Assembly (NCBI GenBank): GCA_050486485.1
Contig: JBJHDJ010000001.1
Location: forward strand, 1 to 28,251
Direction of reading: 5' to 3'
Origin: Porticoccaceae bacterium
GTDB taxonomy: Bacteria; Pseudomonadota; Gammaproteobacteria; Pseudomonadales; Porticoccaceae
Length of the DNA: 28,251 bases
Both the position numbers and the translations under genes were made by a program. The notes below the pieces were generated by a model. The model was given only the letters and a program-made list of their open reading frames with translations. It made no database searches and had not been told where the DNA came from. Every line of letters starts with the position of its first letter. Positions within the stretch are counted from its first letter, which is position 1. This document shows positions 9,278-28,112 of the stretch, in pieces.

Positions 9278-10183
9278 CTACTGGCCCTTGCGGGGGCGCA
9301 GCCGGGCTCTAAAATCAAATACGCTGTCGAGAAACGCTATCCCGACCAGCACCAAACTCAAGGGCCCAAACATCAGCAGCCCGATATACATCAGCACCAG
9401 CCACTGCACGCCCAGTTGCCAGAACTGCACCGCGTGGTGCACCAGGCCGAGACCCGCCAGCAACAGCGGCAGCCCCAGCAGGCTGGCCCAGGTGCCATAA
9501 TCCGCGGCTCCCAGGTTGCAAACCATCACCCCCAACAGCAGGCCGGTGGCCAGCACCCTGTCAAAGCGCAGGGCGTGGAACTCGGCGCGAAAGCCACCGG
9601 GGTTGAACAGCAACGCCTGCCACCAGCGCCCCAGCAACAGGCTGGCGATCAGCTGCATGGCGGTCAGCCAGGCGAGAAAGCCCAGCACGAACACAGCGCT
9701 GGCCTGCTCCAGGCCGATACCCACGGCCATGGCCCCCATCAGCAGATGAAACACCGAGGCTGCCTGGGGCGTCTCGCCTCCCCGCAGGCCATCCAGCACA
9801 ACCTGCAGGTCCGCCAGCAGTGCCGCCATGGCCTCGCCGGCATAACTGGCGACGAGAATGGTGGCGCCACCGCTCACCGCCACGGCGGTGAGCAGGGTCA
9901 GGGGCCACGACAGGGTATTGCGCAGCACCCGGGCCACGGGTATGACACCCGCCACGCCAATCAGCGAGGTGGCCGCCAGCAGTGGACTTACCTCGCCCCA
10001 GTTGATCATCACCAACAGGGGGATGCAGGCCCAGACAAGGACCAGCAGGCCTTCCTGCAGGGGCTGGCGCAGGGTGACCAGGGCCACCGTGGCCGGACTG
10101 ATCAGGGGCACCAGGTTACCCAACAGGGCGACCAGCGACGCCTGCAGGCGCCCGCGCATGATGAACTCCGCCAGGGCGCGCAC
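9278..10183 (-). CDS. Conserved multi-pass membrane protein between rpsR and rplI (DUF2232/YybS-like)
   Basis: GTG start, [13 protein letters not shown]-terminus, multiple hydrophobic segments; position matches the uncharacterised gene in the Pseudomonas-type rpsF-rpsR-X-rplI operon. Confidence 0.8.
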
Positions 10184-15760: not shown

Positions 15761-15786
15761 AAAACCCGGTTTTTACCGGGTTTTTT
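15761..15786 (+). terminator. Intrinsic terminator after tRNA-Leu (possibly bidirectional)
   Basis: AAAACCCGGT-TTTT-ACCGGGTTTT-TT. Confidence 0.75.
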
Positions 15787-15844
15787 GCTTTCCGGCTCCT
15801 GTTTCGCCCAGATGGATTCCTACACTCCCTGTATCGACAAGGCA

Positions 15845-15869
15845 GCGCTGAGCCGGCCCGGCTCAGCGC
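15845..15869 (-). terminator. Hairpin just downstream of the SnoaL gene
   Basis: 11-bp perfect stem GCGCTGAGCCG-gcc-CGGCTCAGCGC; weak U-tract. Confidence 0.35.
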
Positions 15870-15879
15870 GGGACTGGTC

Positions 15880-16314
15880 TCAGTTGGCCGTGGCGCTGTC
15901 CCGCTGGGCCTCGACATCGGCCAGCAGTGGCAGGATCTTGGCGTCGGCGAGGATGGTGCAGTAGTACTCGTTGACCACCTTGATCAGGCCATTCTCGAAC
16001 GTGAACACCATGCAGTACTGATTGCAGTAGCGCTCGCCGTTGGAGAGGGTCGCGTTGCCTTCGAATTCCACCGCCACGCGATCGCCTTCCGCGGTGGTGG
16101 TCAGGATTTTTGGCTGCAAGCCCGTCGGAATGGTGTCCTTGAATGCCGCGGTGGTGGCGAGGATGAGATCCCGAGGACGCGGGCCGGAAAGCTGGCCAAA
16201 GCCCTTGGCGATGGTTACCGCGTCGGGGGCCAGGCAGGTCTCCGCCGTCACGGCATCCCCGTCGCTGAAAGCCTCGATAAACTTGATGGCAACCGCCTTG
16301 TTGTGCTCACTCAT
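15880..16314 (-). CDS. SnoaL-like / NTF2-fold (ketosteroid isomerase-like) protein
   Basis: NKAVAIKFIEAF, TAEGDRVAVEFEG, YCNQYCMVFTFENGLIKVVNEYYCT; SD AGGAG. Confidence 0.82.
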   Translation of the reverse strand: MSEHNKAVAIKFIEAFSDGDAVTAETCLAPDAVTIAKGFGQLSGPRPRDLILATTAAFKDTIPTGLQPKILTTTAEGDRVAVEFEGNATLSNGERYCNQYCMVFTFENGLIKVVNEYYCTILADAKILPLLADVEAQRDSATAN

Positions 16315-16392
16315 GAGGGTACGCTCCTGGTTTTTCGTTTATAGAAGTAACTGTTCGTTTGCCGCGTGAAAAGCGGCGTCAATCTGGCGCCG

Positions 16393-17613
16393 TCAGCCCG
16401 CGCCTTGCCCGTCGAAGGCGATGGGTAGGCTGTCGAGCCCCCAGGCGCCCATGAAGGGCCGCCAGGTGAGCTCGCCCGCCAGCCGCGGATTGCCGATGCG
16501 GCGGGCGATGAGGTGAAGCCCTTCCTCCAACTGATTGCGGGCGATGAACTGACCGATGCACATGTGCACACCGCGACCGAATCCCAGGTGGCGGTTGGCG
16601 CGGTCCCGTTCCGGATCGAACCTGTGGGGGTCGGGAAACGCCGCCGGGTCCCGTCCCGCCAGCGGAAACGCCAGGGCAATGAGGGCGCCTTCCGGAAACC
16701 GCACGCCATCGTATTCGAAAGTCTTGGCGACTTGGCGAAAGGGGGTGGCGATGGCGCCAAAGCGCAGCATCTCCTCCACCACCTGACGGCAAAAAGCCAT
16801 GTCCTCGGCACAGCGCTGGTACATCTCCGGCTGCTGCAACAGGGTGTGCATGGTCATGCCCAGCAGGTTTTTCGATGTGTCGTAACCCGCCAGCAGGAAG
16901 GTGAGCAACATGAAGCGCAATTCAATGTCGCTGAGTTGACCGGCATTGCGGGCGGCAATCATGGCATCCAGTTCTGATTCGCCGTTGCCGGCCCCCGCTT
17001 TTTCCCTGTCGATGACGAGTTCGTCGGCGAAGGTCCACAGCACATCAAAGGCCGCCAGGATATCCGGTTTGAGAGCGGGATTGAAGGTGAGGGATGACAT
17101 CTGGGTTTCGAGGGCCGAGCGCACCCGGGGGATGGACTCGGCGGACACCCCGAGCAGCCCGCACATCACCGCAATGGGAAAATGGGCGGCAAACTCGGCA
17201 AAATCGAACTCGCCGCGGGGCACCCATTCGTCGAGCAGGTCGCCGATCACGGTACGCATCAGCGGTCGGATCTCGTTGGCCCGCCGCGGCGTGAACCCCG
17301 CCGCCACGCTGTCCCGCAGGCGTTTGTGGGTGTCGCCGGTGGTGGAGATCAGCATTTCATCCATGAAGCGGCCCCACAGAGAGTCCTGGGCCCCGTAGAA
17401 CTCGACGATGCCGAAAAATCCCGGGCGCAACTCGTCGTCCATCGTCGCCAGGTCCCTGGCGGCCTGGTAGCCGTGGACGATGTAGCCGGCGTCGAAGGTG
17501 GCCAGCCAGGGATGGACTCGGCGGGCCTCGTCGACGAAGTGGAAGGGGTCGCGGTGAAAGGCGGGCAGTTCCACCGGCAACCGGGGAATGGTCAAGTCAT
17601 CGAGCATTGGCAT
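16393..17613 (-). CDS. Cytochrome P450
   Basis: I-helix LLAGYDTS, ExxR (EEMLR), heme-binding [10 protein letters not shown]. Confidence 0.95.
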
Positions 17614-19774
17614 TGGCCTGCTCCCTGGGGGATAGCTTGTTGATGGTGACGGGTACCGCCGACATGCGCGGCATGGCGTTGATCGGCTCCACCTCCTGGT
17701 CGCAGCTTATCAGAGCGTTGACATTCACGCCCGGGGCCCCGTCGCCCAGCAATCCCCCCCAGCAGTGGCTGATGGAGACCACCCCCCGGCGCAGTTTGCG
17801 GTCCGGTTGGACGACGGCTTCCATGCGGCCCCGCTGCGAGGTAATTTCGACAAGGTCGCCGGCTTGCAGGCCCAGGACCCGAAGTTCCTCCGGGTTCAAG
17901 TAGGCCGGGTTGCCGGGATGGCGCTTGAGGGTTGCGCTCAATTGGTTGCCGAGGGAGTTCATGACATCGCCATTGCGCCTGGAGGTCAGCAGGTGGGTAA
18001 AGCCCTCTCCAGCGCCGGGCTGCCGCCACGACTTCGAGCGCCACAGCCGCTCCATTTCCCCCGCCACATCCGCCGGCATCACATCGAACCTGTCCTCGGC
18101 GCCGGCGACGGCGGGTTGCACGATGGCGTGGGGTGGCTGGTAAATCTTGCCAGAGGGGTGGCGCCGGGTATCCTCCACCAGTTGCTCGAAGGTGATCGAG
18201 GAATCGGCCATGCGCATCGACAGCAATTGCTCGGTGGTGGGCGGTGTTTCCCTATCCAGCCTGTGGCCAAAAAAATCCAGCTCCAGCCCCAGTCGTTTCG
18301 CCAGCCCCCAGTAGAGGTACCAGTCGTCGATCAGGTCGGAGTCCGCCGGCGGCGCGAGTACCGGCTCGGTGTACATGGCCCAGCTTTTGGTGAGCACGGA
18401 CAACCCTCCGTAGCTCCACGGTATGTCCGGCCGCTCGTACATCATCAGCGGTGGCAGCACGAAGTCCGCGAGCTTGCCGGTGGCGGTCAGGTACGGATCC
18501 ACCACCACCAGCAATTCCAGAGCACGCAGGGCCTCGGTGATTTTTTCCTGGTCGGGGACGCAGATCGCAGGGTTGGCCCCCTGCACGAACATGGCGCGGA
18601 TCTGGCCCTCCCCCGGGGTGAGGATCTCCTCCGCCAGGGTACTGGTGAGCCGGTCCACACCGAGGCGACCCACGCCGCGGATACGACTGGGGGGCAGGGA
18701 TTCCCAGGAACGCGGGGGCGGAATCACCTGGGCATGAAAGGTCATTTTTGGCGCCACCATGTCCACCACGGCCCTGTCCCCCGCGCGGCGGAAACGGCCG
18801 CAGAGAATATTGAGGGTGTCCACCAGATGCTGGGTCAGGTTGGAAAATGGCGCCATGCTGGGACCGGTGGCGGTGAAGGCCGCGCCGGATTTGCTGTCAC
18901 GGGCGAACAGCTTCGCCGCCGCGCGTATCTGCCCGGGTGCCAGGTCCGCTCCCCACTCCACCTGCTGGTCGGCAAAGGGCTCCACGGCCTGTCGCAGATC
19001 GGCGATGCGCTCCGCGCCCACATGTCGCGCGACGAATTCCCGATCTTCCCAGCCCTCCCGCAGGATGATGCGAATCATCGCCGCGGCGATGGCGGCATCG
19101 CGCCCCGGCAGGGGCTGCAGGAACAGGTCGGCATGGTGGGCGGTTTCCGTGCGACGCGGATCGATGCAGATCAGCTTCAGGCCACGGGCCTTGGCTTTTT
19201 TCAGGATGCGGGATGGATCCGGGCTGAACACCGGCATGGTGGAATGGGAAATCAACGGATTGGAGCCAAACAGCAGGATCACCTCGGACTGGTCGATATC
19301 CTGCAACCCGGCCCCCCAGCCACCCTGGCGCTCGAAGCTCACCGCCTTGGCGGACTGGTCGATGGTGTTGACGGTGAAGTATTGCCGCGAGCCGATGGCC
19401 TCGAGGAAGGCATCCTGCATGTGGTTGGTGGCCACATGGGTACCGGCGGTGCCCTTGAAGCCCGCCACCGCCTCACCGCCGTGGCGCTTGAGAATAGGTT
19501 CCAGCCTTGCGGCAATTTCGTTCAGGGCCTGTTCGCTGTCGATCTCCGCAAAGCTGCCATCCCGTTGCCTTTTCAGCGGCCTTAGCAGGCGGGCCGGCCC
19601 GTGGTGGGCCTCCTCCGCCTGCAACCCCTTGAAACAGACATAGCCGTTGGACATGGGGCTGTCCTTGTCCCCGCGGATCTTGACGATGCGGTTGTGCTCC
19701 TCGTCCACCGTCAGCACCACCCCGCAGAGGGCGGTGCAGATGCGACAGTAACTGCGTTTTTCCCTGATTGCCAT
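17597..19774 (-). CDS. Molybdopterin (bis-PGD) oxidoreductase, DMSO-reductase/FdhF-like superfamily, single subunit
   Basis: N-terminal Cx2Cx3Cx29C-x-K [4Fe-4S] motif, [43 protein letters not shown]-terminal molydopterin-binding domain; no Tat signal; start ATG 19774. Confidence 0.92.
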
Positions 19775-20086
19775 GGACCTTGCCTTGATTGACTGCTCTC
19801 GCCGCCCCATCACCAGCCGAGACCTGCCCATTGCTCCTGGTTGACGCCAAGCGATTTATCCAAGGAACTTCTGAAACCTGGGCCAATACCCCGCCAGGAA
19901 CAGAACCAATGAACACGAACAAGCTGAAGAAGCTGGTTATACGCTATTTATGCTTAGCGGTTTCAACGACCAGCGAAGCTGCCTGACCTTTATATTTTCG
20001 GGAAAGATCTTACTGGAAGAGCGCTTGGCTGGCCATGGATACGAAAGCTCTTGTCTGCGAAAACTCCTGACTACGAAAACTCCCGA

Positions 20087-20407
20087 CTAGGAAAGTTCCT
20101 CAAGACGGCGCAGCCGGGAGTGCATGGCCTCCAGTTCGTCGAGCAGTTCCAGGGCGAGGGCGACACCAGCGATATTGACCCCGAGATCCCGCCGCAAGCG
20201 CACCGCGCGGCGCACGCGGCGCAGGCAGTGGCCCTGGAAACGCCAGCGTCCCCCCGGGGAGGTGCTGACCTCGATCACGCCGTAGTCCACCAGTTCCAGC
20301 ACCTCGTCGCTGGACAGTTCGCAGGAACGGCACAGTTCCGCGAGGCTCAATTCCACCCCCTCCTCGAGGATGTCTCCGGAAAGCAGTCTTTGCAGTTGCT
20401 CGCTCAT
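20087..20407 (-). CDS. cbpM: Chaperone modulator CbpM
   Basis: LSLAELCRSC...ELVDYGVI...RRAVRLRRDLGVNIAGVALALELLDEL (MerR-like fold); directly downstream of cbpA. Confidence 0.9.
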   Translation of the reverse strand: MSEQLQRLLSGDILEEGVELSLAELCRSCELSSDEVLELVDYGVIEVSTSPGGRWRFQGHCLRRVRRAVRLRRDLGVNIAGVALALELLDELEAMHSRLRRLEELS

Positions 20408-21633: not shown

Positions 21634-23082
21634 TCAGTCCCTGGCATGGCGGGCGGCGATGGCTTCCAGTCGCTGTTCGATATCCGTGGCGGCGAGCCAT
21701 TGGCCGCGCACCATGACACCGGCAATACGCCGGGTATTGGCGATATCCAACAGGGGGTTGTCGTCTAGCAACACCAGGTCGGCGCGGCGACCGGCGCCGA
21801 TGGTGCCAAACTCGCCGGGGGCGCCGAGTACCGTGGCGGCGTTGCGGGTGCCGGTGACCAACGCTTCGAATGGGGTCAACCCGGAGGCCACCAGGCTGGC
21901 CAGTTCCCCGTGAACAGAGAAACCGGGCACATTGAAGAACTGGGGCGCATCGGAGCCCAGGGCCAGCATGGCCCCGCCATCGTGCAGCGCGCGGATAAGC
22001 TCGCGGCGAATCTCCACCAACCGCTGGGCGGCCTCGGGCTGGAAATATGGCTGGGCTTGCAGGTTGTCCTTGTAGTCCACCCAGGTGGCCACCATGTCCT
22101 CGGGCAGGTAGCGCATCTCGGGCCATGCCGCCATGTCGGCGGCGGACTCCGCGGAGGCCAAATTGTCCAGCAAGGTCTGGGTGGGCACATTCCACACCCC
22201 AGCCTCGCGGGTGCGCTCGGCGGCCAGGGGAATGCGTTCGGGATCGATCAGGTCCACCAGGCCGCTGCCGAAGAAACCCGCCTCCCGGTCGCCGATATCG
22301 GCATCCTCCCTCACCAGAAACTCGGCATAGCGGTCAAGATGATCGATGGTCAGTTGGCGGTGCTTCAGGGCGCCCTCCAGGCCCACCTCGGCGGGAATGT
22401 GGCCGGCAAAGGGAATGCCCAGCTCGTGGGCCGTTGCCGCCATGCGGGCATAGGCCTCGGGGGTAATGCTGAACACCTTGAGGAAATCATAGCCGGCGGC
22501 GTGCTGCTCGCGTACCACCCGTTCCGCCGCCTCGGGGTCCGGCACATTCTGGTGAAAGAGTCCCATGCCGGCGGTGTACAGGGTGGGGCCGAGGACTTCG
22601 CCCACGGCGACGCGCTGGCGCAGCTCCAGGTGATAGGGATCGCCGATCATGCCCCTCGCGGTGGTGACGCCGTTGGCCACGAACAGGAACAGCACATCCT
22701 CCACCCCCTGGGGATCGTGGGGGCCGGGGAAGCGCTCGGCCCGCTCCGGGGGGCCGGGAATATGGGCGTGCATCTCCGTCAACCCGGGCATCAGGTAGCG
22801 CCCGGCCCCGACGATCACCGTGGCGTCCGGCGGCACGGCGATCTGGCCGTCGGGAGCCAGCGCCTCGATGCGCTCGCCACGGACGATGACAGTGTGATTC
22901 TCCAGAATCACCTCGTCGTCCATGGGCAACACATTGACGCCGGTGAACACCACGGGTGACGGAATTTGTTGAGGCGAACCTTTCAGCGAGGGTGGCAGCA
23001 GCAACACCGCAAGCGCAAGCCACGCAGCAATGATGGCGCGGCGCGAAAAGGTGCTGGTGGCCAGGGACCGGGGATGATTCAT
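21634..23082 (-). CDS. Metal-dependent amidohydrolase family protein with N-terminal export signal
   Basis: MPGLTEMHAH (HxH), GYDFLKV, FAGH, IDHL, LGSDAP, GRRADLVLLDDNPL; start placed at ATG 23082. Confidence 0.88.
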   Translation of the reverse strand: MNHPRSLATSTFSRRAIIAAWLALAVLLLPPSLKGSPQQIPSPVVFTGVNVLPMDDEVILENHTVIVRGERIEALAPDGQIAVPPDATVIVGAGRYLMPGLTEMHAHIPGPPERAERFPGPHDPQGVEDVLFLFVANGVTTARGMIGDPYHLELRQRVAVGEVLGPTLYTAGMGLFHQNVPDPEAAERVVREQHAAGYDFLKVFSITPEAYARMAATAHELGIPFAGHIPAEVGLEGALKHRQLTIDHLDRYAEFLVREDADIGDREAGFFGSGLVDLIDPERIPLAAERTREAGVWNVPTQTLLDNLASAESAADMAAWPEMRYLPEDMVATWVDYKDNLQAQPYFQPEAAQRLVEIRRELIRALHDGGAMLALGSDAPQFFNVPGFSVHGELASLVASGLTPFEALVTGTRNAATVLGAPGEFGTIGAGRRADLVLLDDNPLLDIANTRRIAGVMVRGQWLAATDIEQRLEAIAARHARD

Positions 23083-23249
23083 GAAAGCCTCCCGAGCATG
23101 TCTATCAGCGGCAAAGCCAACGCCGGCCGCCAAGGAAACAGCCAGCGCGGGAGAGCCGCCGGGGACATTCAAGCATAGGCGGCCAGCGGCCATCTCGCCA
23201 ATTTTGAAGCCAGGACCGAGCCAGGAAGTCGTGGTGATGCCTTGAATGC

Positions 23250-23365
23250 CGTCTGACGTCTGACGTCTGACGCATTGAAACTCACCACTGCCAACTGACA
23301 ACTGACAACTGCCAACTGACAACTGACAACTGACAACTGACAACTGACAACTGACAACTGAAAAC
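23250..23365 (+). repeat. Composite 7-bp-period array: (CGTCTGA)x3, three degenerate units, (CAACTGA/C)x10
   Basis: Read directly; register is continuous from 23250 to 23361. Confidence 0.95.
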
Positions 23366-23420
23366 TTCTCTATAAAACCCCACCAGCGATATCTCTCACC
23401 CCCATGGCGAGCAGCTCACT

Positions 23421-24203
23421 TCAGCCATTGATCCCCGGCTGCGCTGGCTCTTGGAACGCGGCCAGGATCTTGTTGTGGCGATCCTCGAGAATGCCGCGAT
23501 AGAAGGGATGACTGATGATGTAGGGCTCGTCGTTCTCGATGGCCCTCACCACGGCGCGGCCCAGCCACACCGGTTCCATCATCTGGGTTTTCATCAGTTC
23601 GGGGGGAATGAATCCGGCGGCGGCGTCCGCCTCGGACATCTTGCTGCGGGTAAGCCCGGGAAACAGCACGGAGACGCCCACGCCGTGGGGCGCCAGTTCG
23701 TCCCGCAGGGCGTCCGACATGCCGGTCACGGCGAACTTGCTGGCGCAGTAGGCGGCGAAGGTGCCAAACGGCAACAGGCCATTGGCGGACGAGGTGTTGA
23801 CGATATGGCCGCCGCGCTGTGCCCGCATGTCGTCGGCAAAGGTGACAACACCGTGATAGACACCGGTGACATTGATGGCCATGACCCGCTCGAAGGTTTG
23901 CGGTGGGATCCTGTCCAGTGGCGCGCGGGGGTGGGAAATACCCGCGTTGTTGCACAGCACATCCACGCGCCCGAAACGCTCCAGGGTGGCGCGGCGCGCC
24001 GCCTTCCAACTATCCAGGGAAGTGACATCGAGCCGCACGGAAATGGCGTCGGCGCCGAACTGCGCAGCCTTGGCCCTGGCGTGCTCGAGATCGATATCCG
24101 CCAGCACCAGCTTCATGCCCTTCTCGGCAAAGGCCTCCGCCATGCCGCCGCCGATACCGCCACCTCCACCAGTGATAAATGCGACCTTGCCTTCAAGTTC
24201 CAT
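23421..24203 (-). CDS. Short-chain dehydrogenase/reductase (probably NAD-preferring)
   Basis: TGGGGGIG, Asp at the end of beta2 (LADID), NNAG, YCASK. Confidence 0.92.
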   Translation of the reverse strand: MELEGKVAFITGGGGGIGGGMAEAFAEKGMKLVLADIDLEHARAKAAQFGADAISVRLDVTSLDSWKAARRATLERFGRVDVLCNNAGISHPRAPLDRIPPQTFERVMAINVTGVYHGVVTFADDMRAQRGGHIVNTSSANGLLPFGTFAAYCASKFAVTGMSDALRDELAPHGVGVSVLFPGLTRSKMSEADAAAGFIPPELMKTQMMEPVWLGRAVVRAIENDEPYIISHPFYRGILEDRHNKILAAFQEPAQPGING

Positions 24204-24354
24204 GGTTACCTCTCAAGAATGTGCTGTGGAACCATCGTCCGGAAAAGCTGCCTTCCAGACAACCCAACCTGTGGCCCCTGGATTGATGCCTGAACCTTGG
24301 ACGGGTTTAGCGCAGAAAAACCCTTCGATTGAAGTTGCCACGCCTTCCTCTCCC

Positions 24355-24386
24355 TGATGGGTATCGCTTCGCTCAACCCATCCTAC
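24355..24386 (-). repeat. GTAG-type REP, single copy with loop variant
   Basis: 31/32 identical to the 1680 copy (inner GCGAAGC instead of GCGCAGC). Confidence 0.85.
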
Positions 24387-24429
24387 ATGCCTACACGCCA
24401 TTTCTCGCCAGCATCGACAGGAGAGAATG

Positions 24430-25209
24430 TCAGCCCTGGCGCTGCTCCGCCGCCGTGCCGGAAAAGCCAATGGCGTAGCCGCCGTCCACCGGCAGGGCCG
24501 TGCCGGTGATATAGGACGCCTCATCGCTGGCGAGGAACAGGGCGGCGGCGGCAATTTCGCTGGCCAGCCCCCAGCGGTTCATGGGGATCCCGGGCAGCAC
24601 TGGGGCATCCGCGGGCGGTACTTGGTGAATTTCCGACTCCTTGACCAAACCAGTCCAGGTGGTTCCGGGGCACACCGCGTTGACGCGAATGTTCTGCTCG
24701 GCGTAATCCAGGGCGGCGCACTTGGTCATCTGTATCACCCCCGCCTTGGCGGCGCCATAGACGCCGTGACCCTTCCAGCCCACCAGGGCCACCGCCGAGG
24801 CAATGTTGACGATGGCGCCGCCACCGGTTTTGAGCATGGAGATCACTCCATGCTTCATGCCGAAGAACACGCCGCGGACATTCACCCCGTGCACCCGGTC
24901 CCAGTGTTCCGTGGTCTGTTCGTGGAGGGGTTTGAGGCCACCGCCAAAGCCGGCGTTGTTGACCAGGATATCCAGGCGGCCAAACTCCCTCTCCGCCGTG
25001 ACGATCATGTTCTGAACCTGGGATTCGTCCGCCACATCGGCGTGCACCGCCACTGCCGCCGAGCCGATGGTGGCGGCGACCTCGTCCTGCCTGCCGCTGA
25101 TATCGGCACACACCACCCTGGCGCCCTCGGCGGCAAACATCACCGCCATGGCCTTGCCCATGCCGGAGCCCGCCCCGGTAATTACCGCCACCTTGCCTTT
25201 CAGTCGCAT
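24430..25209 (-). CDS. Short-chain dehydrogenase/reductase (probably NAD-preferring)
   Basis: TGAGSGMG, CADIS, NNAG, YGAAK, IRVNAVCPG, GTALPVDGG. Confidence 0.92.
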   Translation of the reverse strand: MRLKGKVAVITGAGSGMGKAMAVMFAAEGARVVCADISGRQDEVAATIGSAAVAVHADVADESQVQNMIVTAEREFGRLDILVNNAGFGGGLKPLHEQTTEHWDRVHGVNVRGVFFGMKHGVISMLKTGGGAIVNIASAVALVGWKGHGVYGAAKAGVIQMTKCAALDYAEQNIRVNAVCPGTTWTGLVKESEIHQVPPADAPVLPGIPMNRWGLASEIAAAALFLASDEASYITGTALPVDGGYAIGFSGTAAEQRQG

Positions 25210-25324
25210 TTCTACCTCAACATCGTGATTGGGTTATTTGTGATGGGTTGTTACCGAGCCTACTGCGGTAGCGGCTAGGCGTCCTGCCTACACAGGCTGA
25301 ATACCCGCAGCCCGGACCCCGGAG

Positions 25325-26077
25325 TCAATACAGTATATCCGTCGTCGCCCGCACCCAAAGCTCCGAGACATCCACCCGCTGGGGCAAGGACACGATAAAT
25401 GCAATCAGCGTGGCGATGTCCTCGGGAATCAGCGCGCCCTCCTGGTGAACATGGTCGCGTATCGCACCGCGGATAGTGTCGTCGCTGATACCCTCCGCCA
25501 CCTCGGTGGCCACGGAGCCCGGCGCCAGCATGCACACCCGGACACCGCTGGGGCCGACTTCCTGACGCAAGCCATCGGTCATGGCGTTGAGCGCCGCCTT
25601 GCTGGTGGCATAGGAATTGAAAACCGGCGAAGTGGTGCGGCAGGCCAGGGAGCCCACATTGATGATATAGCCGCTGCCCTGGGCCACCATGGGCGGCACC
25701 GCGGCATGACAGGTGTAGATGGCGCCCATCAGGTTGACATCCAGTACCCGCCGCCACTGGTCGAGATTGGCGCGCGCCAGGTTGTCCGCCTGGATGATAC
25801 CGGCGGCATTGACGAGAATATCCAGGCGGCCGAAATGCTCCATGGTGCTGGCAACGGCCCCCTTGGCGAAGGCTTCCTGGGAGATATCCCCCGGCAGGGC
25901 CAGGGCCTCGCCACCCGCCAAGCGGATGCTCTCCACCAGGGCCTCCAGGCGCTCCGCGCGGCGCGCTACCGCCACCACCTGGGCGCCGGCCGATGCCAAT
26001 GCGGATGCCGTCGCCCGGCCAATGCCCGAGGACGCGCCCGTCACCAGGGCCACCTGGCCTTGTAGACTACCGGTCAT
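25325..26077 (-). CDS. Short-chain dehydrogenase/reductase (probably NADP-preferring)
   Basis: TGASSGIG, basic ARR after beta2, NAAG, YATSK; start ATG 26077. Confidence 0.9.
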   Translation of the reverse strand: MTGSLQGQVALVTGASSGIGRATASALASAGAQVVAVARRAERLEALVESIRLAGGEALALPGDISQEAFAKGAVASTMEHFGRLDILVNAAGIIQADNLARANLDQWRRVLDVNLMGAIYTCHAAVPPMVAQGSGYIINVGSLACRTTSPVFNSYATSKAALNAMTDGLRQEVGPSGVRVCMLAPGSVATEVAEGISDDTIRGAIRDHVHQEGALIPEDIATLIAFIVSLPQRVDVSELWVRATTDILY

Positions 26078-26306
26078 GGGATACTTCCTGTCGATTTCCG
26101 GAATCAGTTCCGAAGCGTTTATGTGTTTTGGCTTGTGGCAGCGACCGCGCACTCCGAAGGCGGCAATACATCACCACGGGGAATGTACCCGGTACGCCCG
26201 GGTGAGACAACACAGCGACTGTCACGAGCCAGAAAACAATCCCAGTCCCAACTGACTATCACGACCCACTCGCGGAAACTCCGATGGGTTTTGCCGAAAG
26301 CATTGA

Positions 26307-26729
26307 CTACCTGTCGCTGGGATGACTGCCGGCCCCGTCGATCACCGGCACATTGGCGAGGGTGTGGGGGTCAATACCCTCCAGGCAGCCAATATTGAAG
26401 GCATATTGCGTGGGGATAGAGCGCCTCTGGTGATGGGTATAAATTCCGCAGCGAGAACAGAAATAATGGCGGGCAACGCCGGTGTTGAACTGGTAGAGGG
26501 TGAGAAGTTCCTCACCCTCGTCGATGGTGAAGTCCGCCAGGTCCACGAAGCCCATGATGACACCGCGCCGCTTGCAGATGGAACAATTGCACCTGCGCGG
26601 ATCCCGCAGGCCATTCTCGAAACGCACCGTGAACTTGACGCCGCCGCAATGGCACTGCCCTTTGTGGCAGGGCTGTACTTCCAGCCTGTCCACCAGGGGC
26701 TTGTCGCTGAAGGTGAATTGAACCTCCAT
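26307..26729 (-). CDS. GFA/CENP-V family Zn-binding protein (glutathione-dependent formaldehyde-activating-like)
   Basis: GQCHCGGV, CNCSIC, HYFCSRCGI Cys motifs. Confidence 0.88.
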   Translation of the reverse strand: MEVQFTFSDKPLVDRLEVQPCHKGQCHCGGVKFTVRFENGLRDPRRCNCSICKRRGVIMGFVDLADFTIDEGEELLTLYQFNTGVARHYFCSRCGIYTHHQRRSIPTQYAFNIGCLEGIDPHTLANVPVIDGAGSHPSDR

Positions 26730-26792
26730 GGCTTGTCTCCATGATCTGGGTGGCGAAAACCCCGCCGCGGGGTTGCCTCACCGTGGAAAATA

Positions 26793-26821
26793 CCGGTGAC
26801 GGCATGCTGTGCCGTCACCGG
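26793..26821 (-). terminator. Probable intrinsic terminator after the second P450
   Basis: 12-bp perfect stem CCGGTGACGGCA/TGCCGTCACCGG with 5-nt loop, followed on the minus strand by TATTTT; 7 nt after the P450 stop. Confidence 0.6.
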
Positions 26822-26828
26822 CACCCTG

Positions 26829-28112
26829 TCAAGCCGGTTGCAAATCGACATGCAGATTGGCCAGGCCCCGGATGATGAAACTGGCCTCGTATTCCAGGTT
26901 GCGGTTGCCAGGGGGACCGTGGTGCTTCTCGGACAGCCCGATGTCCGAGGTGTGGTCGAAGAATCGCTCGAGGATGACCTTCACTTCGGCGCGGGCCAGG
27001 GGTGCGCCGGCGCAAGTGTGCACGCCGCGACCAAAGGCCAGGTGTTCGCGGATCCTGGGGCGGTTGAGCAGCAGCTCCCTGGGGTTTTCCCAGCGCCGTG
27101 GATCGCGGTTGGCGGCGGCGAGGGCGACCACCACGCGCTTGCCCACCGGCACTTCCACATCGCCAATGCGGGTGGCGCGGCGAGCCACCCGGAAGGTGGC
27201 CTTGGTGGAGCCTTCCATGCGCAACACCTCCTCGATCAGCGCGGATATCAGCTTGGGATCCTCCCGCAGGGTCTGTTGCAGGCCCGGGGTTTCGACGATC
27301 AGACGCATGGCGTTGCTGAGCAACTTGGCGCTGGTGTCCTGGCCGGCGGCGAACATGAAGGTGGCCACCTTCACCACCTCCGGCAGATCCGGCAGGGTGC
27401 CATCCGGGTAGGTGGCCCTGGCCAGCTCGGTGAGCACGTCGTTCCTGGGGTTTTCACGGCGTTCGTGCAGATACTGGAAAAAGAACCGGCCCATGTATTC
27501 AAGAGGGTGCGTGCCGACGGGCTGCCCTTCGGCCTGCATGTTGCCGGGGGGCGGGGCGGCGTCGATCACTTCACGGAACTTCTCGCGATCCTCGGCGGGC
27601 ACCCCCAGCAGGTCGGCGATCACCAGGGTGACATAGGGGGTGGCGATCTCGTTGACAATCTCGCAGCCGCCCCTGGCCACGGCCTCCCTCACCAGTTGGT
27701 CGGCGTAGACCTCCATGAACTCCTCGTTGGCCTTCAGGCGCGAGGGGGTGAACAGTCCGTTGACGATGGATCGCACCGCCGTGTGCCGGCCATCGTCGTA
27801 GGACACCAGCAGCTCGCCGCCTGGAATTTCGTGGCGGTGGGCCTCTATCTGATCAGTGAGATCATCCCCCTGGGGCTCGAAGGGTAGCGGAAAGGCCGCC
27901 CCGGTGGTTGCCCCGTAGGAGGAAAAGTCGCGGTGGTTGCGCAGCACCTCGATGCACTCTTCGAAGCCGGTCACCACCAGGATATCGCGGTTCTTGAGTT
28001 GATAGATGGGCCCCTTGGCGCGAAGTGTCTCGAAGTATTCATAGGGGTCGAGCAGGACAGACAAGTCGGTGAAATAGTCCTTTTCCGTGGGGTCTTGCAC
28101 ATTGATGTTCAT
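26829..28112 (-). CDS. Cytochrome P450
   Basis: I-helix FAAGQDTS, ExxR (EEVLR), heme-binding FGRGVHTCAG; SD GAGG. Confidence 0.95.
   Translation of the reverse strand: MNINVQDPTEKDYFTDLSVLLDPYEYFETLRAKGPIYQLKNRDILVVTGFEECIEVLRNHRDFSSYGATTGAAFPLPFEPQGDDLTDQIEAHRHEIPGGELLVSYDDGRHTAVRSIVNGLFTPSRLKANEEFMEVYADQLVREAVARGGCEIVNEIATPYVTLVIADLLGVPAEDREKFREVIDAAPPPGNMQAEGQPVGTHPLEYMGRFFFQYLHERRENPRNDVLTELARATYPDGTLPDLPEVVKVATFMFAAGQDTSAKLLSNAMRLIVETPGLQQTLREDPKLISALIEEVLRMEGSTKATFRVARRATRIGDVEVPVGKRVVVALAAANRDPRRWENPRELLLNRPRIREHLAFGRGVHTCAGAPLARAEVKVILERFFDHTSDIGLSEKHHGPPGNRNLEYEASFIIRGLANLHVDLQPA

What the first reader, a model, noticed from the sequence alone, without database searches (positions are those of the whole stretch)
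15880..19774. Translationally coupled molybdoenzyme-P450 pair plus SnoaL gene: candidate ferredoxin-free P450 system
Seen: the P450 ATG (17613, SD GGAG 7 nt upstream) lies inside the last codons of the Mo-oxidoreductase (17-nt overlap), and a SnoaL/KSI-like gene follows 78 bp later. Both enzymes lack export signals, the P450 has intact catalytic motifs, and no redox partner is encoded in the window. Established: bacterial class I P450s need a ferredoxin and reductase; DMSO-reductase-family enzymes move electrons through an N-terminal [4Fe-4S] cluster. Inference: the Mo-enzyme oxidises a substrate or pathway intermediate and passes electrons via its Fe-S cluster to the P450, or the two perform O2-independent and O2-dependent steps on the same scaffold. 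I know of no characterised system with this layout.
Basis: partly seen in the sequence, partly recalled or inferred. Interest (0 to 1): 0.75.

Follow-up and report, generated by a model that had tools for sequence, protein, structure and literature searches.

The report
Conserved molybdoenzyme-P450 catabolic gene pair
A three-gene operon joins an uncharacterised cytoplasmic molybdenum enzyme, an ordinary ferredoxin-type cytochrome P450 and a small NTF2-like enzyme; the molybdenum-enzyme/P450 pairing recurs in other bacteria, so the two probably work in one breakdown pathway, but nothing shows that the molybdenum enzyme replaces the P450's usual ferredoxin.

Summary
On the minus strand, a 725-aa bis-MGD (MopB) enzyme (17597-19774) overlaps a 406-aa P450 (16393-17613) by 17 nt. 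A SnoaL_2 gene follows after 78 bp. None has an export signal, and the window encodes no ferredoxin.

The "ferredoxin-free" inference is not supported:
- The 3.1-Mb MAG has about 22 P450 genes.
- It has a canonical ferredoxin reductase plus [2Fe-2S] ferredoxin pair on another contig.
- Ferredoxin genes sit beside other P450s.
- P450 relatives at 59-64% identity elsewhere lack both a nearby Mo-enzyme and a ferredoxin.
- No Mo-P450 fusion was found.

The pairing itself is real and conserved. Two subclades of this Mo-enzyme family lie next to P450 genes in Gamma- and Alphaproteobacteria and Actinomycetota. Both gene orders occur, often with 4-17-nt overlaps, and sometimes with a different P450 family.

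The Mo-enzyme belongs to a large, uncharacterised family. It is stand-alone and cytoplasmic, has Asp/Gln where formate dehydrogenase H has Sec/His, and has 3-10 paralogs per genome in this genus.

Most likely the genes are a co-pathway catabolic module whose P450 is served by ferredoxins encoded elsewhere. Electron coupling remains an untested minority reading. First-stage notes from two other genomes in this scan describe similar stand-alone Mo enzymes, one inside a P450 island.

The parts
17597..19774 (-). Stand-alone cytoplasmic bis-MGD (MopB/DMSO-reductase superfamily) enzyme, 725 aa
   Evidence: Pfam PF04879+PF00384+PF01568. AlphaFold model pLDDT 81; Foldseek TM about 0.7 to FDH, FdhH, NapA and acetylene hydratase at no more than 22% identity. 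All NCBIfam equivalogs score far below cut-off.
19625..19747 (-). N-terminal [4Fe-4S] (FS0) motif: C10-x2-C13-x3-C17 ... C47, and Lys49 (VCFKG)
   Evidence: Motif positions. C10, C13, C17, C47 and K49 are invariant in 15 homologues.
19358..19360 (-). Asp139 codon at the position of the Mo ligand (TIDQSAK); Gln140 follows
   Evidence: The HMMER alignment to E. coli FdhH (1aa6) puts D opposite Sec140 and Q opposite His141. T137, I138, D139, Q140 and A142 are invariant in alignment A1.
17597..17613 (-). 17-nt overlap of the Mo-enzyme stop with the P450 start; GGGAG lies 7 nt upstream of the ATG
   Evidence: Read directly. The orthologous pair in L005 overlaps by 10 nt. The Mo C-terminal tail in the overlap is not conserved.
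16393..17613 (-). Class I-type cytochrome P450, 406 aa
   Evidence: PF00067. Best solved relatives are 3p3l/3p3o (E 7e-60), then EryF and PikC. Heme loop at 16552-16581, ExxR at 16762-16773, I-helix AGYDT at 16876-16890.
15880..16314 (-). SnoaL_2 / NTF2-like small enzyme, 144 aa
   Evidence: PF12680, 48.7 bits. Model pLDDT 90. Foldseek TM about 0.7 to limonene-1,2-epoxide hydrolase, SnoaL2/AclR, ketosteroid isomerase and NsrQ at 14-20% identity. A 66%-identical orthologue lies 5.4 kb from the Mo-P450 pair in L005.
15761..15869 (.). Palindrome (15845-15869) and terminator-like hairpin (15761-15784) closing the operon before rnr
19775..20086 (-). 312-bp upstream intergenic region (presumed promoter/operator; includes part of a 16-bp x3.4 tandem repeat at 20040-20094)
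   Evidence: The consensus scan found no sigma-70 match on the minus strand, so the promoter is inferred only.

Best explanation
The three genes form an accessory catabolic operon. An uncharacterised, monomeric, cytoplasmic bis-MGD enzyme, a class I P450 and an NTF2-like enzyme probably act on the same hydrophobic substrate or its successive intermediates.

The Mo-enzyme has an Asp-type active site and one surface [4Fe-4S] cluster. The NTF2-like enzyme resembles epoxide hydrolases, isomerases and cyclases.

The P450 probably receives its electrons in the ordinary way, from NAD(P)H through the ferredoxin reductase and acidic [2Fe-2S] ferredoxins encoded elsewhere in the genome. The Mo-enzyme's net-basic Fe-S domain probably docks a soluble carrier of the same kind. 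The direction of its electron flow is unknown.

Shown here: gene structure, domain identities, the Asp/Gln active-site substitution, conservation of the pairing, and the presence of FdR/Fdx elsewhere in the genome.

Inferred: a shared substrate, the ferredoxin supply to the P450, and the chemistry of the Mo-enzyme.
For: The pairing is conserved but flexible, which is the pattern of pathway partners:
- Mo before P450 in the window, L005 and L001.
- P450 before Mo on the contigs of P0282, P0281 and P0354.
- Divergent orientation with P0008.
- A second subclade with both orders: L061 versus L094-L096.
- The partner P450 is co-inherited in some pairs (window/L005: Mo 63%, P450 61%; L061/L094-96: Mo 58-60%, P450 49-50%). 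It is replaced by another CYP family in others (L001: Mo 67%, P450 29%; L068/L061: Mo 73%, P450 27%).

The neighbours are catabolic: SDR in 36 of 80 loci, plus TonB receptors, luciferase-like monooxygenases, acyl-CoA synthetases, PQQ alcohol dehydrogenases, TauD, SnoaL_4 and alpha/beta hydrolases.

Ordinary redox partners exist in this genome:
- An FdR+Fdx operon on C287.
- Ferredoxin genes beside the P450s on C96 and C428.
- About 22 P450s in total.

P450 relatives (59-64% identity) exist without an adjacent Mo-enzyme or ferredoxin.

A 47% paralogue of the P450 on C258 sits between a PQQ alcohol dehydrogenase and the [2Fe-2S] subunit of a xanthine-oxidase-family molybdoenzyme. That layout suggests sequential oxidation after hydroxylation.

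Molybdenum cofactor genes are present: MoeA and a MobA-like gene.
Against: - No substrate, product or expression data exist.
- Tight overlaps (4-17 nt) in several independent pairs, and re-pairing with different CYP families, would also fit a generic protein-protein partnership.
- The Mo-enzyme family has no recurrent electron-transfer partner gene of its own, so its redox partner is unknown.
- No ferredoxin lies next to any member of this CYP family that I sampled, so its ferredoxin is assumed rather than identified.
- The MAG is about 90% complete and fragmented into 597 contigs.
Confidence: 0.6

Rival explanations
1. Electron coupling through a shared ferredoxin pool. The Mo-enzyme oxidises a low-potential pathway intermediate, for example the aldehyde formed after P450 hydroxylation and alcohol oxidation. 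It reduces the soluble ferredoxin, which then feeds the P450. This would partly spare NAD(P)H.
For: - Both proteins are cytoplasmic. The Mo-enzyme keeps the FS0 cysteines and the Lys that link FS0 to the pterin.
- The FS0 domain is net basic, and the genome's Fdx has pI 4.05.
- In one Mo-less locus an NAD-dependent aldehyde dehydrogenase sits beside the related P450.
- On C258 a different molybdoenzyme subunit follows the P450 paralogue.
Against: - This is purely circumstantial. No MopB-family aldehyde oxidoreductase is known (my own knowledge).
- If the Mo-enzyme hydroxylates C-H bonds as the Asp-ligated enzymes do, the potential would be too high to reduce a P450 (established thermodynamics of ethylbenzene dehydrogenase, from my own knowledge).
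- Most family members have no P450 nearby.
Confidence: 0.15
2. The Mo-enzyme is the dedicated redox partner: its FS0 cluster docks on the P450 and delivers two successive electrons from Mo(IV). This would make a ferredoxin-free, substrate-driven P450 system.
For: - Recurrent immediate adjacency with start/stop overlaps in independent lineages and in both orders.
- Re-pairing with different CYP families, as a generic donor might allow.
- No ferredoxin gene next to any sampled pair.
- The 2 x 1-electron output of a Mo/FS0 enzyme matches what a P450 needs (inference).
Against: - No Mo-P450 fusion was found, either among long proteins related to this P450 or among the top 150 family representatives, all of which are 753 aa or shorter.
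- Related P450s work in loci, and probably genomes, where the Mo gene is unlinked.
- About 80% of the Mo family is not near a P450.
- FS0 net charge is the same in linked and unlinked members.
- The P450 keeps the FTPRR motif. From memory I take this as typical of ferredoxin-dependent class I P450s; I did not test it.
- The genome has a canonical FdR/Fdx pair.
- I found no precedent in the searchable literature.
Confidence: 0.08
3. There is no functional link. The adjacency is a by-product of packing many P450 and Mo-enzyme paralogues into catabolic islands of P450-rich genomes.
For: - The genus carries 23-31 P450 hits and 3-10 Mo paralogues per genome.
- The closest Mo homologues (P0005 75%, P0006 76%) are followed by a GST-like gene and an SDR, not a P450.
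- The operon is absent from five same-genus genomes.
Against: - Cognate pairs are co-inherited across classes and phyla: window/L005; P0282+P0011; L061 versus L094-96.
- Immediate co-directional P450 neighbours occur in 5-6 of 80 species-representative loci. My rough expectation is 1-2% per locus.
- The adjacency clusters in two subclades of the tree.
Confidence: 0.07

Closest known systems
Class I three-component P450 systems (P450cam/putidaredoxin/putidaredoxin reductase type)
   Same: Soluble P450 of about 400 aa with an intact heme-thiolate loop, ExxR and acid-alcohol pair. The genome encodes an FAD reductase with a Reductase_C domain next to an acidic [2Fe-2S] ferredoxin.
   Different: No ferredoxin or reductase lies in the operon. 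A bis-MGD enzyme occupies the neighbouring slot that often holds the ferredoxin gene.
Nearest solved P450 structures, PDB 3p3l/3p3o (from memory: AurH of aureothin biosynthesis), then EryF and PikC
   Same: Full-length sequence match, E 7e-60 for 3p3l. Same single-domain class I architecture.
   Different: Those are tailoring enzymes in actinomycete antibiotic biosynthesis. Here the context is catabolic and proteobacterial, and the substrate is unknown.
Monomeric FS0-containing MopB enzymes: formate dehydrogenase H, assimilatory nitrate reductases NasC/NarB, D. desulfuricans NapA, acetylene hydratase
   Same: Same size and four-domain fold (TM about 0.7), the same N-terminal Cys4 motif and conserved Lys, cytoplasmic like FdhH, Nas and acetylene hydratase, and no fixed partner subunit.
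   Different: Identity is 22% or less. The Sec/Cys ligand is replaced by Asp and the adjacent His by Gln. All curated models score far below cut-off. The setting is aerobic catabolic clusters, with many paralogues per genome.
Asp-ligated type II DMSO-reductase-family hydroxylases (ethylbenzene dehydrogenase, steroid C25 dehydrogenase, p-cymene dehydrogenase) and NarG
   Same: Asp at the metal-ligand position. A possible functional analogy as O2-independent oxidisers of hydrophobic substrates, acting alongside or instead of P450s.
   Different: Those enzymes are Tat-exported or membrane-bound heterotrimers with beta (4 Fe-S) and gamma (heme b) subunits. This one is a stand-alone cytoplasmic monomer, scores 69 bits against a cut-off of 985 on TIGR03479, and its fold is nearest to type I members.
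Self-sufficient P450 fusions (CYP102A1 P450-BM3; CYP116B P450-RhF with an FMN/[2Fe-2S] reductase)
   Same: The concept of a P450 physically tied to its own electron source.
   Different: There is no fusion here or in any relative found. The only long relative of this P450 is a P450-alpha/beta-hydrolase fusion (P0124).
NTF2-like small-molecule enzymes (limonene-1,2-epoxide hydrolase, SnoaL2/AclR, ketosteroid isomerase, NsrQ)
   Same: The third gene has the same alpha+beta cone fold (TM about 0.7) and matches Pfam SnoaL_2.
   Different: Identity is 14-20%. There is no sequence match to any solved chain. Catalytic residues are not assignable.

Membership tests
DMSO reductase (MopB, bis-MGD) superfamily | Molybdop_Fe4S4 + Molybdopterin + Molydop_binding domain architecture | tested here: met
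   37, 116 and 57 bits, all above the Pfam cut-offs
DMSO reductase (MopB, bis-MGD) superfamily | N-terminal Cys4 motif for FS0, and the conserved Lys between FS0 and the pterin | tested here: met
   C10, C13, C17, C47 and K49 are invariant in 15 homologues
DMSO reductase (MopB, bis-MGD) superfamily | Fold match to solved members | tested here: met
   Foldseek E 1e-37, TM 0.69-0.74
DMSO reductase (MopB, bis-MGD) superfamily | Binds Mo or W bis-MGD | not testable with these tools
   Only the genomic capacity is seen: MoeA and a MobA-like gene are present
Formate dehydrogenase (FdhF/FdhH type) | Sec or Cys metal ligand followed by the catalytic His | tested here: not met
   Asp139 and Gln140 align to Sec140 and His141 of 1aa6
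Formate dehydrogenase (FdhF/FdhH type) | Curated model TIGR01591 above cut-off | tested here: not met
   203.5 bits against 666
Assimilatory nitrate reductase (NasC/NarB) | Cys metal ligand, and the curated model above cut-off | tested here: not met
   Asp at the ligand position. NF047855 scores 172 bits against 1100
Type II DMSO reductase family (NarG, EbdA, S25DH) | Asp metal ligand | tested here: met
   By alignment position only
Type II DMSO reductase family (NarG, EbdA, S25DH) | Beta (Fe-S) and gamma subunit genes adjacent, a Tat signal or membrane anchor, and the curated model above cut-off | tested here: not met
   No such genes in the window or among recurrent neighbours. FS0 starts at residue 10. 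TIGR03479 scores 69 bits against 985
Class I (ferredoxin-dependent) bacterial P450 | FxxGxHxCxG heme loop, ExxR, and the I-helix (A/G)Gx(D/E)T | tested here: met
   Residues 345-354, 281-284 and 242-246. PF00067 at 96.6 bits
Class I (ferredoxin-dependent) bacterial P450 | Ferredoxin and ferredoxin reductase available in the organism | tested here: met
   C287 carries FdR (Pyr_redox_2 + Reductase_C) next to a 106-aa Fer2 ferredoxin. Further ferredoxin genes sit beside P450s on C96 and C428
Class I (ferredoxin-dependent) bacterial P450 | Turnover actually depends on that ferredoxin | not testable with these tools
   Needs biochemistry
Self-sufficient (fused) P450 systems | Reductase or donor domain fused to the P450 | tested here: not met
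   A 406-aa single-domain protein. No Mo-P450 fusion
SnoaL-like / NTF2-like enzymes | SnoaL_2 profile match and the alpha+beta cone fold | tested here: met
   48.7 bits against 27. Model pLDDT 90, TM about 0.7 to LEH, SnoaL2 and KSI

The most novel reading that the evidence does not exclude
In these conserved pairs the Mo-enzyme is the physiological electron source of the P450. Oxidising a pathway intermediate at the Mo centre would send two electrons, through FS0 directly or through a tightly shared ferredoxin, to the heme. That would give a substrate-driven, NAD(P)H-independent P450 system of a kind not described before.
Probability: 0.12. Interest if true: 0.85.

Novelty: new variant of a known kind. 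Interest (0 to 1): 0.5.

Why it matters
Bis-MGD enzymes acting on organic substrates are known almost only from anaerobes.

This family is large, cytoplasmic, partner-less and Asp-type. It is multiplied 3-10-fold per genome in aerobic, P450-rich degraders, and two of its subclades are genetically tied to P450s.

Working out what it does would:
- add a new reaction class to aerobic catabolism of hydrophobic compounds;
- explain a common annotation that is probably misleading ('anaerobic selenocysteine-containing dehydrogenase', 'nitrate reductase');
- test whether O2-independent and O2-dependent oxygenation are combined in one pathway.

If the minority reading were right, it would be a new way to power P450s and of interest for biocatalysis.

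Cultured strains with a coupled pair, such as Novosphingobium cyanobacteriorum HBC54 (locus L074), make this testable.

Tried and rejected
1. Natural Mo-P450 fusions.
- I joined the two window genes with an X at the junction, only to widen the length filter, and searched the P450 part. The single long relative found was a P450-alpha/beta-hydrolase fusion.
- A profile search of 1.84 billion representatives gave a top 150 that were all 753 aa or shorter.
- Both are weak negatives.

2. Synteny in the genus.
- Five same-genus genomes lack an orthologue of the P450 (none at E <= 1e-40). Their best Mo match is 50% identical.
- The region upstream of rnr differs in the three genomes I fetched. The operon is accessory, so the genus gives no conserved context.

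3. I first took the Fer2 hit after the P450 paralogue on C258 for a P450 ferredoxin. Its sequence and Pfam matches (Fer2 + Fer2_2) show it is the small subunit of a xanthine-oxidase-family molybdoenzyme.

4. The window's amidohydrolase (21634-23343) is not related to the Amidohydro_3 genes that accompany Mo-P450 clusters elsewhere.

5. FS0-domain net charge does not distinguish P450-linked from unlinked Mo-enzymes.

6. Six literature searches found no paper on a MopB-P450 pairing or on this Mo family.

7. The SnoaL protein has no sequence match in the PDB. The fold search gives only the generic NTF2-like class.

8. The consensus promoter scan found nothing convincing upstream of the Mo gene.

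9. The tools could not name the organism.


Full report
OBSERVATION

The three genes lie on the minus strand exactly as described.
- The Mo-enzyme ORF runs 19831-17597. Fifteen homologues start at the Met of MAIREK, so the gene is 19774-17597, 725 aa.
- The P450 runs 17613-16393, 406 aa. Its ATG lies 17 nt inside the Mo gene and is preceded by GGGAG at -7.
- The SnoaL_2 gene runs 16314-15880. It follows after 78 nt and has its own AGGAG.
- A perfect 12-bp palindrome and a terminator-like hairpin lie between SnoaL and the housekeeping gene rnr. The trio therefore looks like one transcription unit.
- The first Fe-S cysteine is residue 10, so there is no room for a Tat signal. Neither the P450 nor SnoaL has a leader.
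- The P450 has all catalytic motifs.
- No ferredoxin, flavodoxin or reductase is encoded in the window.

WHAT THE GENES ARE

The Mo-enzyme has the three MopB domains, the Cys4 FS0 motif and the conserved Lys.
- Its model (pLDDT 81) matches formate dehydrogenases, NapA, NasC/NarB and acetylene hydratase. TM is about 0.7, but identity is only 17-22%.
- It reaches no curated NCBIfam cut-off.
- In the HMMER alignment to E. coli FdhH, Asp139 lies opposite Sec140 and Gln140 opposite His141. Both are invariant in the family. It is therefore neither a formate dehydrogenase nor a Nas/Nap-type nitrate reductase. This confirms a separate first-stage note (e1-5315623).
- It also lacks the subunits, export signal and profile score of the Asp-ligated type II enzymes.
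- The family is large. The top 150 representatives at 50% clustering all score above 370 bits. Sources name it only generically.

The P450 is an ordinary class I type. Its best solved relatives are 3p3l/3p3o, then EryF and PikC.

The third protein is an NTF2-like cone. It is closest in fold to limonene epoxide hydrolase, SnoaL2/AclR and ketosteroid isomerase.

GENOME CONTEXT

The window belongs to a 3.1-Mb MAG with 597 contigs, about 90% complete.
- The operon sits between housekeeping genes: rnr-rlmB on one side, a DnaJ/MerR_2 pair on the other.
- Five same-genus genomes have no orthologue. The best Mo match is 50% identical, and no P450 hit reaches E <= 1e-40. The region upstream of rnr differs in the three genomes I fetched. 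The operon is accessory.
- The genus is very rich in both families: 23-31 P450 hits and 3-10 Mo paralogues per genome.
- The MAG encodes a canonical ferredoxin reductase (Pyr_redox_2 + Reductase_C) next to a 106-aa acidic [2Fe-2S] ferredoxin on C287. It has further small ferredoxin genes directly beside P450s on C96 and C428.
- Many P450s sharing a few ferredoxins is normal for P450-rich bacteria (my own knowledge). The absence of a partner in the window carries no weight.

SURVEY ANCHORED ON THE MO-ENZYME

Eighty species-representative loci were fetched with 6-kb flanks.
- A P450 lies within 6 kb in 15-17 of them.
- It is an immediate co-directional neighbour in L005, L001 and L068 (Mo then P450) and in L061 and L074 (P450 then Mo). 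In L002 a frameshifted P450 lies 402 nt upstream of the Mo gene, and a second P450 follows downstream as Mo, amidohydrolase, P450.
- P450 ties with SDR as the commonest identifiable immediate co-directional neighbour.
- Neighbours overall are heterogeneous and catabolic: SDR in 36 of 80 loci, plus TonB receptors, luciferase-like monooxygenases, acyl-CoA synthetases, Amidohydro_3, aldo-keto reductases, Rieske oxygenases, TauD, CoA-transferases, sulfotransferases and SnoaL_4.
- No electron-transfer subunit recurs.
- The two closest homologues (75-76% identity, on 3.6-kb contigs) are followed by a GST-like gene and an SDR, not a P450. The 68% homologue has a divergent P450 plus a PQQ alcohol dehydrogenase.
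- In the genus, a second Mo then P450 pair is conserved in three species (L094-L096). A convergent pair occurs in a fourth (L097).

SURVEY ANCHORED ON THE P450

I examined the six best P450 homologues that sit on contigs of at least 8 kb (62-64% identity).
- One (P0279) is preceded by a truncated 679-aa gene that could not be identified.
- Three have no Mo-enzyme within 5 kb: P0276, P0277 and P0283.
- P0276 and P0277 share the synteny of P0281: DUF4337, SDR, P450, TetR, LLM. They lack the Mo gene and have a TauD gene instead.
- Two more homologues were chosen because they seemed to share a contig with a Mo hit. P0354 is followed by Mo and then an alpha/beta hydrolase. P0360 stands alone among housekeeping genes.
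- None of these P450s has a ferredoxin gene nearby.

CO-INHERITANCE

A maximum-likelihood tree of 90 family members places the adjacency in two subclades plus one singleton.

Pairwise identities show cognate pairs inherited together:
- window/L005: Mo 63%, P450 61%;
- L061 versus L094-96: Mo 58-60%, P450 49-50%, with opposite gene order.

They also show partner swaps:
- L001: Mo 67% but P450 29%;
- L068 versus L061: Mo 73% but P450 27%.

My rough expectation for an immediate P450 neighbour in a genome with about 30 P450s in about 3,300 genes is 1-2% per locus. The observed 5-6 of 80, concentrated in two subclades, is well above that. Related loci are not independent, and catabolic islands raise the background.

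THE FERREDOXIN-FREE IDEA

Against it:
- no fusion protein was found;
- related P450s exist without a linked Mo gene;
- most Mo-family members are not near a P450;
- a canonical FdR/Fdx pair is present;
- FS0-domain net charge is the same (about +3) in linked and unlinked members, while the genome's ferredoxin is strongly acidic (pI 4.05). This crudely suggests that the Mo-enzyme, like the P450, docks an acidic carrier.

For it:
- repeated tight coupling in independent lineages;
- pairing with several CYP families.

Co-folding and biochemistry, which would decide the question, were not available.

MECHANISM

My best reading (0.6) is a co-pathway catabolic module.
- The P450 oxygenates a hydrophobic substrate, using electrons from the FdR/Fdx chain encoded elsewhere.
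- The NTF2-like enzyme processes an oxygenated intermediate by epoxide opening, isomerisation or cyclisation.
- The Mo-enzyme performs a further oxygen-atom-transfer, dehydrogenation or hydration step, exchanging electrons with a soluble carrier.

One observation fits sequential oxidation after hydroxylation. The P450 paralogue on C258 sits between a PQQ alcohol dehydrogenase and the [2Fe-2S] subunit of a xanthine-oxidase-family molybdoenzyme.

The rivals are ferredoxin-mediated electron recycling (0.15), direct donation (0.08) and chance (0.07).

COMPARISON AND NOVELTY

Each protein is a new member of a known superfamily. What is not described, as far as six full-text searches show, is two things:
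- this stand-alone cytoplasmic Asp-type MopB family, with its paralogue expansion in aerobes;
- its conserved pairing with P450 genes.

Two unchecked first-stage notes from other genomes (e1-4177030, e1-5167006) describe the same kind of stand-alone Mo enzymes, one of them inside a P450 island. That agrees with my survey.

I rate this as a new variant of a known kind, with moderate interest.

LIMITS
- The DNA of several metagenome contigs was not available, so I relied on the tool's gene calls and Pfam tables.
- My ORF calls in fetched loci use a simple GC3 filter and the first start codon, so gap lengths are upper or lower bounds.
- The organism could not be named.
- The sampling of P450 homologues is small.

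Noticed in passing
window 20040-20094: A 16-bp tandem repeat (consensus TACGAAAACTCCTGAC, 3.4 copies, 82% matches) straddles the stop of the MerR_2 gene, about 270 bp upstream of the Mo-enzyme start.
   Followed up: no
window 21634-28112: A second co-directional block of catabolic genes lies upstream: another P450 (26829-28112), a 169-aa ORF with no Pfam match, three SDRs and an Amidohydro_1 protein. A DnaJ/MerR_2 (CbpA/CbpM-like) pair separates it from the Mo operon. The amidohydrolase is not related to the Amidohydro_3 genes of other Mo-P450 clusters.
   Followed up: partly
G000 contig C258 (locus L102 1-4430): The 47%-identical paralogue of the window's P450 sits between a PQQ quinohemoprotein alcohol dehydrogenase and a Fer2+Fer2_2 small subunit of a xanthine-oxidase-family molybdoenzyme. 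The contig ends there. This is a second, different P450-molybdoenzyme adjacency in the same genome.
   Followed up: partly
same-genus genomes G001, G003-G005: This genus carries 3-10 paralogues of the Mo-enzyme family and 23-31 P450 hits per genome of about 3.5 Mb. That is an unusual joint expansion for an aerobic proteobacterium.
   Followed up: partly
protein P0124; locus L106 8425-9270; contig of P0354: A natural P450-alpha/beta-hydrolase fusion (701 aa) is 46% identical to the window's P450. Stand-alone alpha/beta-hydrolase genes flank two P450-then-Mo pairs. This suggests a hydrolase is another recurrent partner of this CYP family.
   Followed up: no
loci L104, L105 versus the contig of P0281: The loci are otherwise syntenic (DUF4337, SDR, P450, TetR, LLM). 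They differ in carrying either the Mo-enzyme gene (between P450 and TetR) or a TauD-family dioxygenase gene (between TetR and LLM), as if the two were alternative modules.
   Followed up: no
L002 4267-5488; L020 2774-4376 and 6001-8177: In two gammaproteobacterial MAGs, the P450 upstream of the Mo gene is split into two overlapping frames, and in L020 the Mo gene is split as well. These are either pseudogenes or long-read assembly frameshifts.
   Followed up: no
window 9278-10183 (minus strand): A 301-aa ORF with coding-like GC3 lies between rplI and rpsF, where priB and rpsR are expected. It has no Pfam match. It may be a mis-called frame over small ribosomal-operon genes.
   Followed up: no
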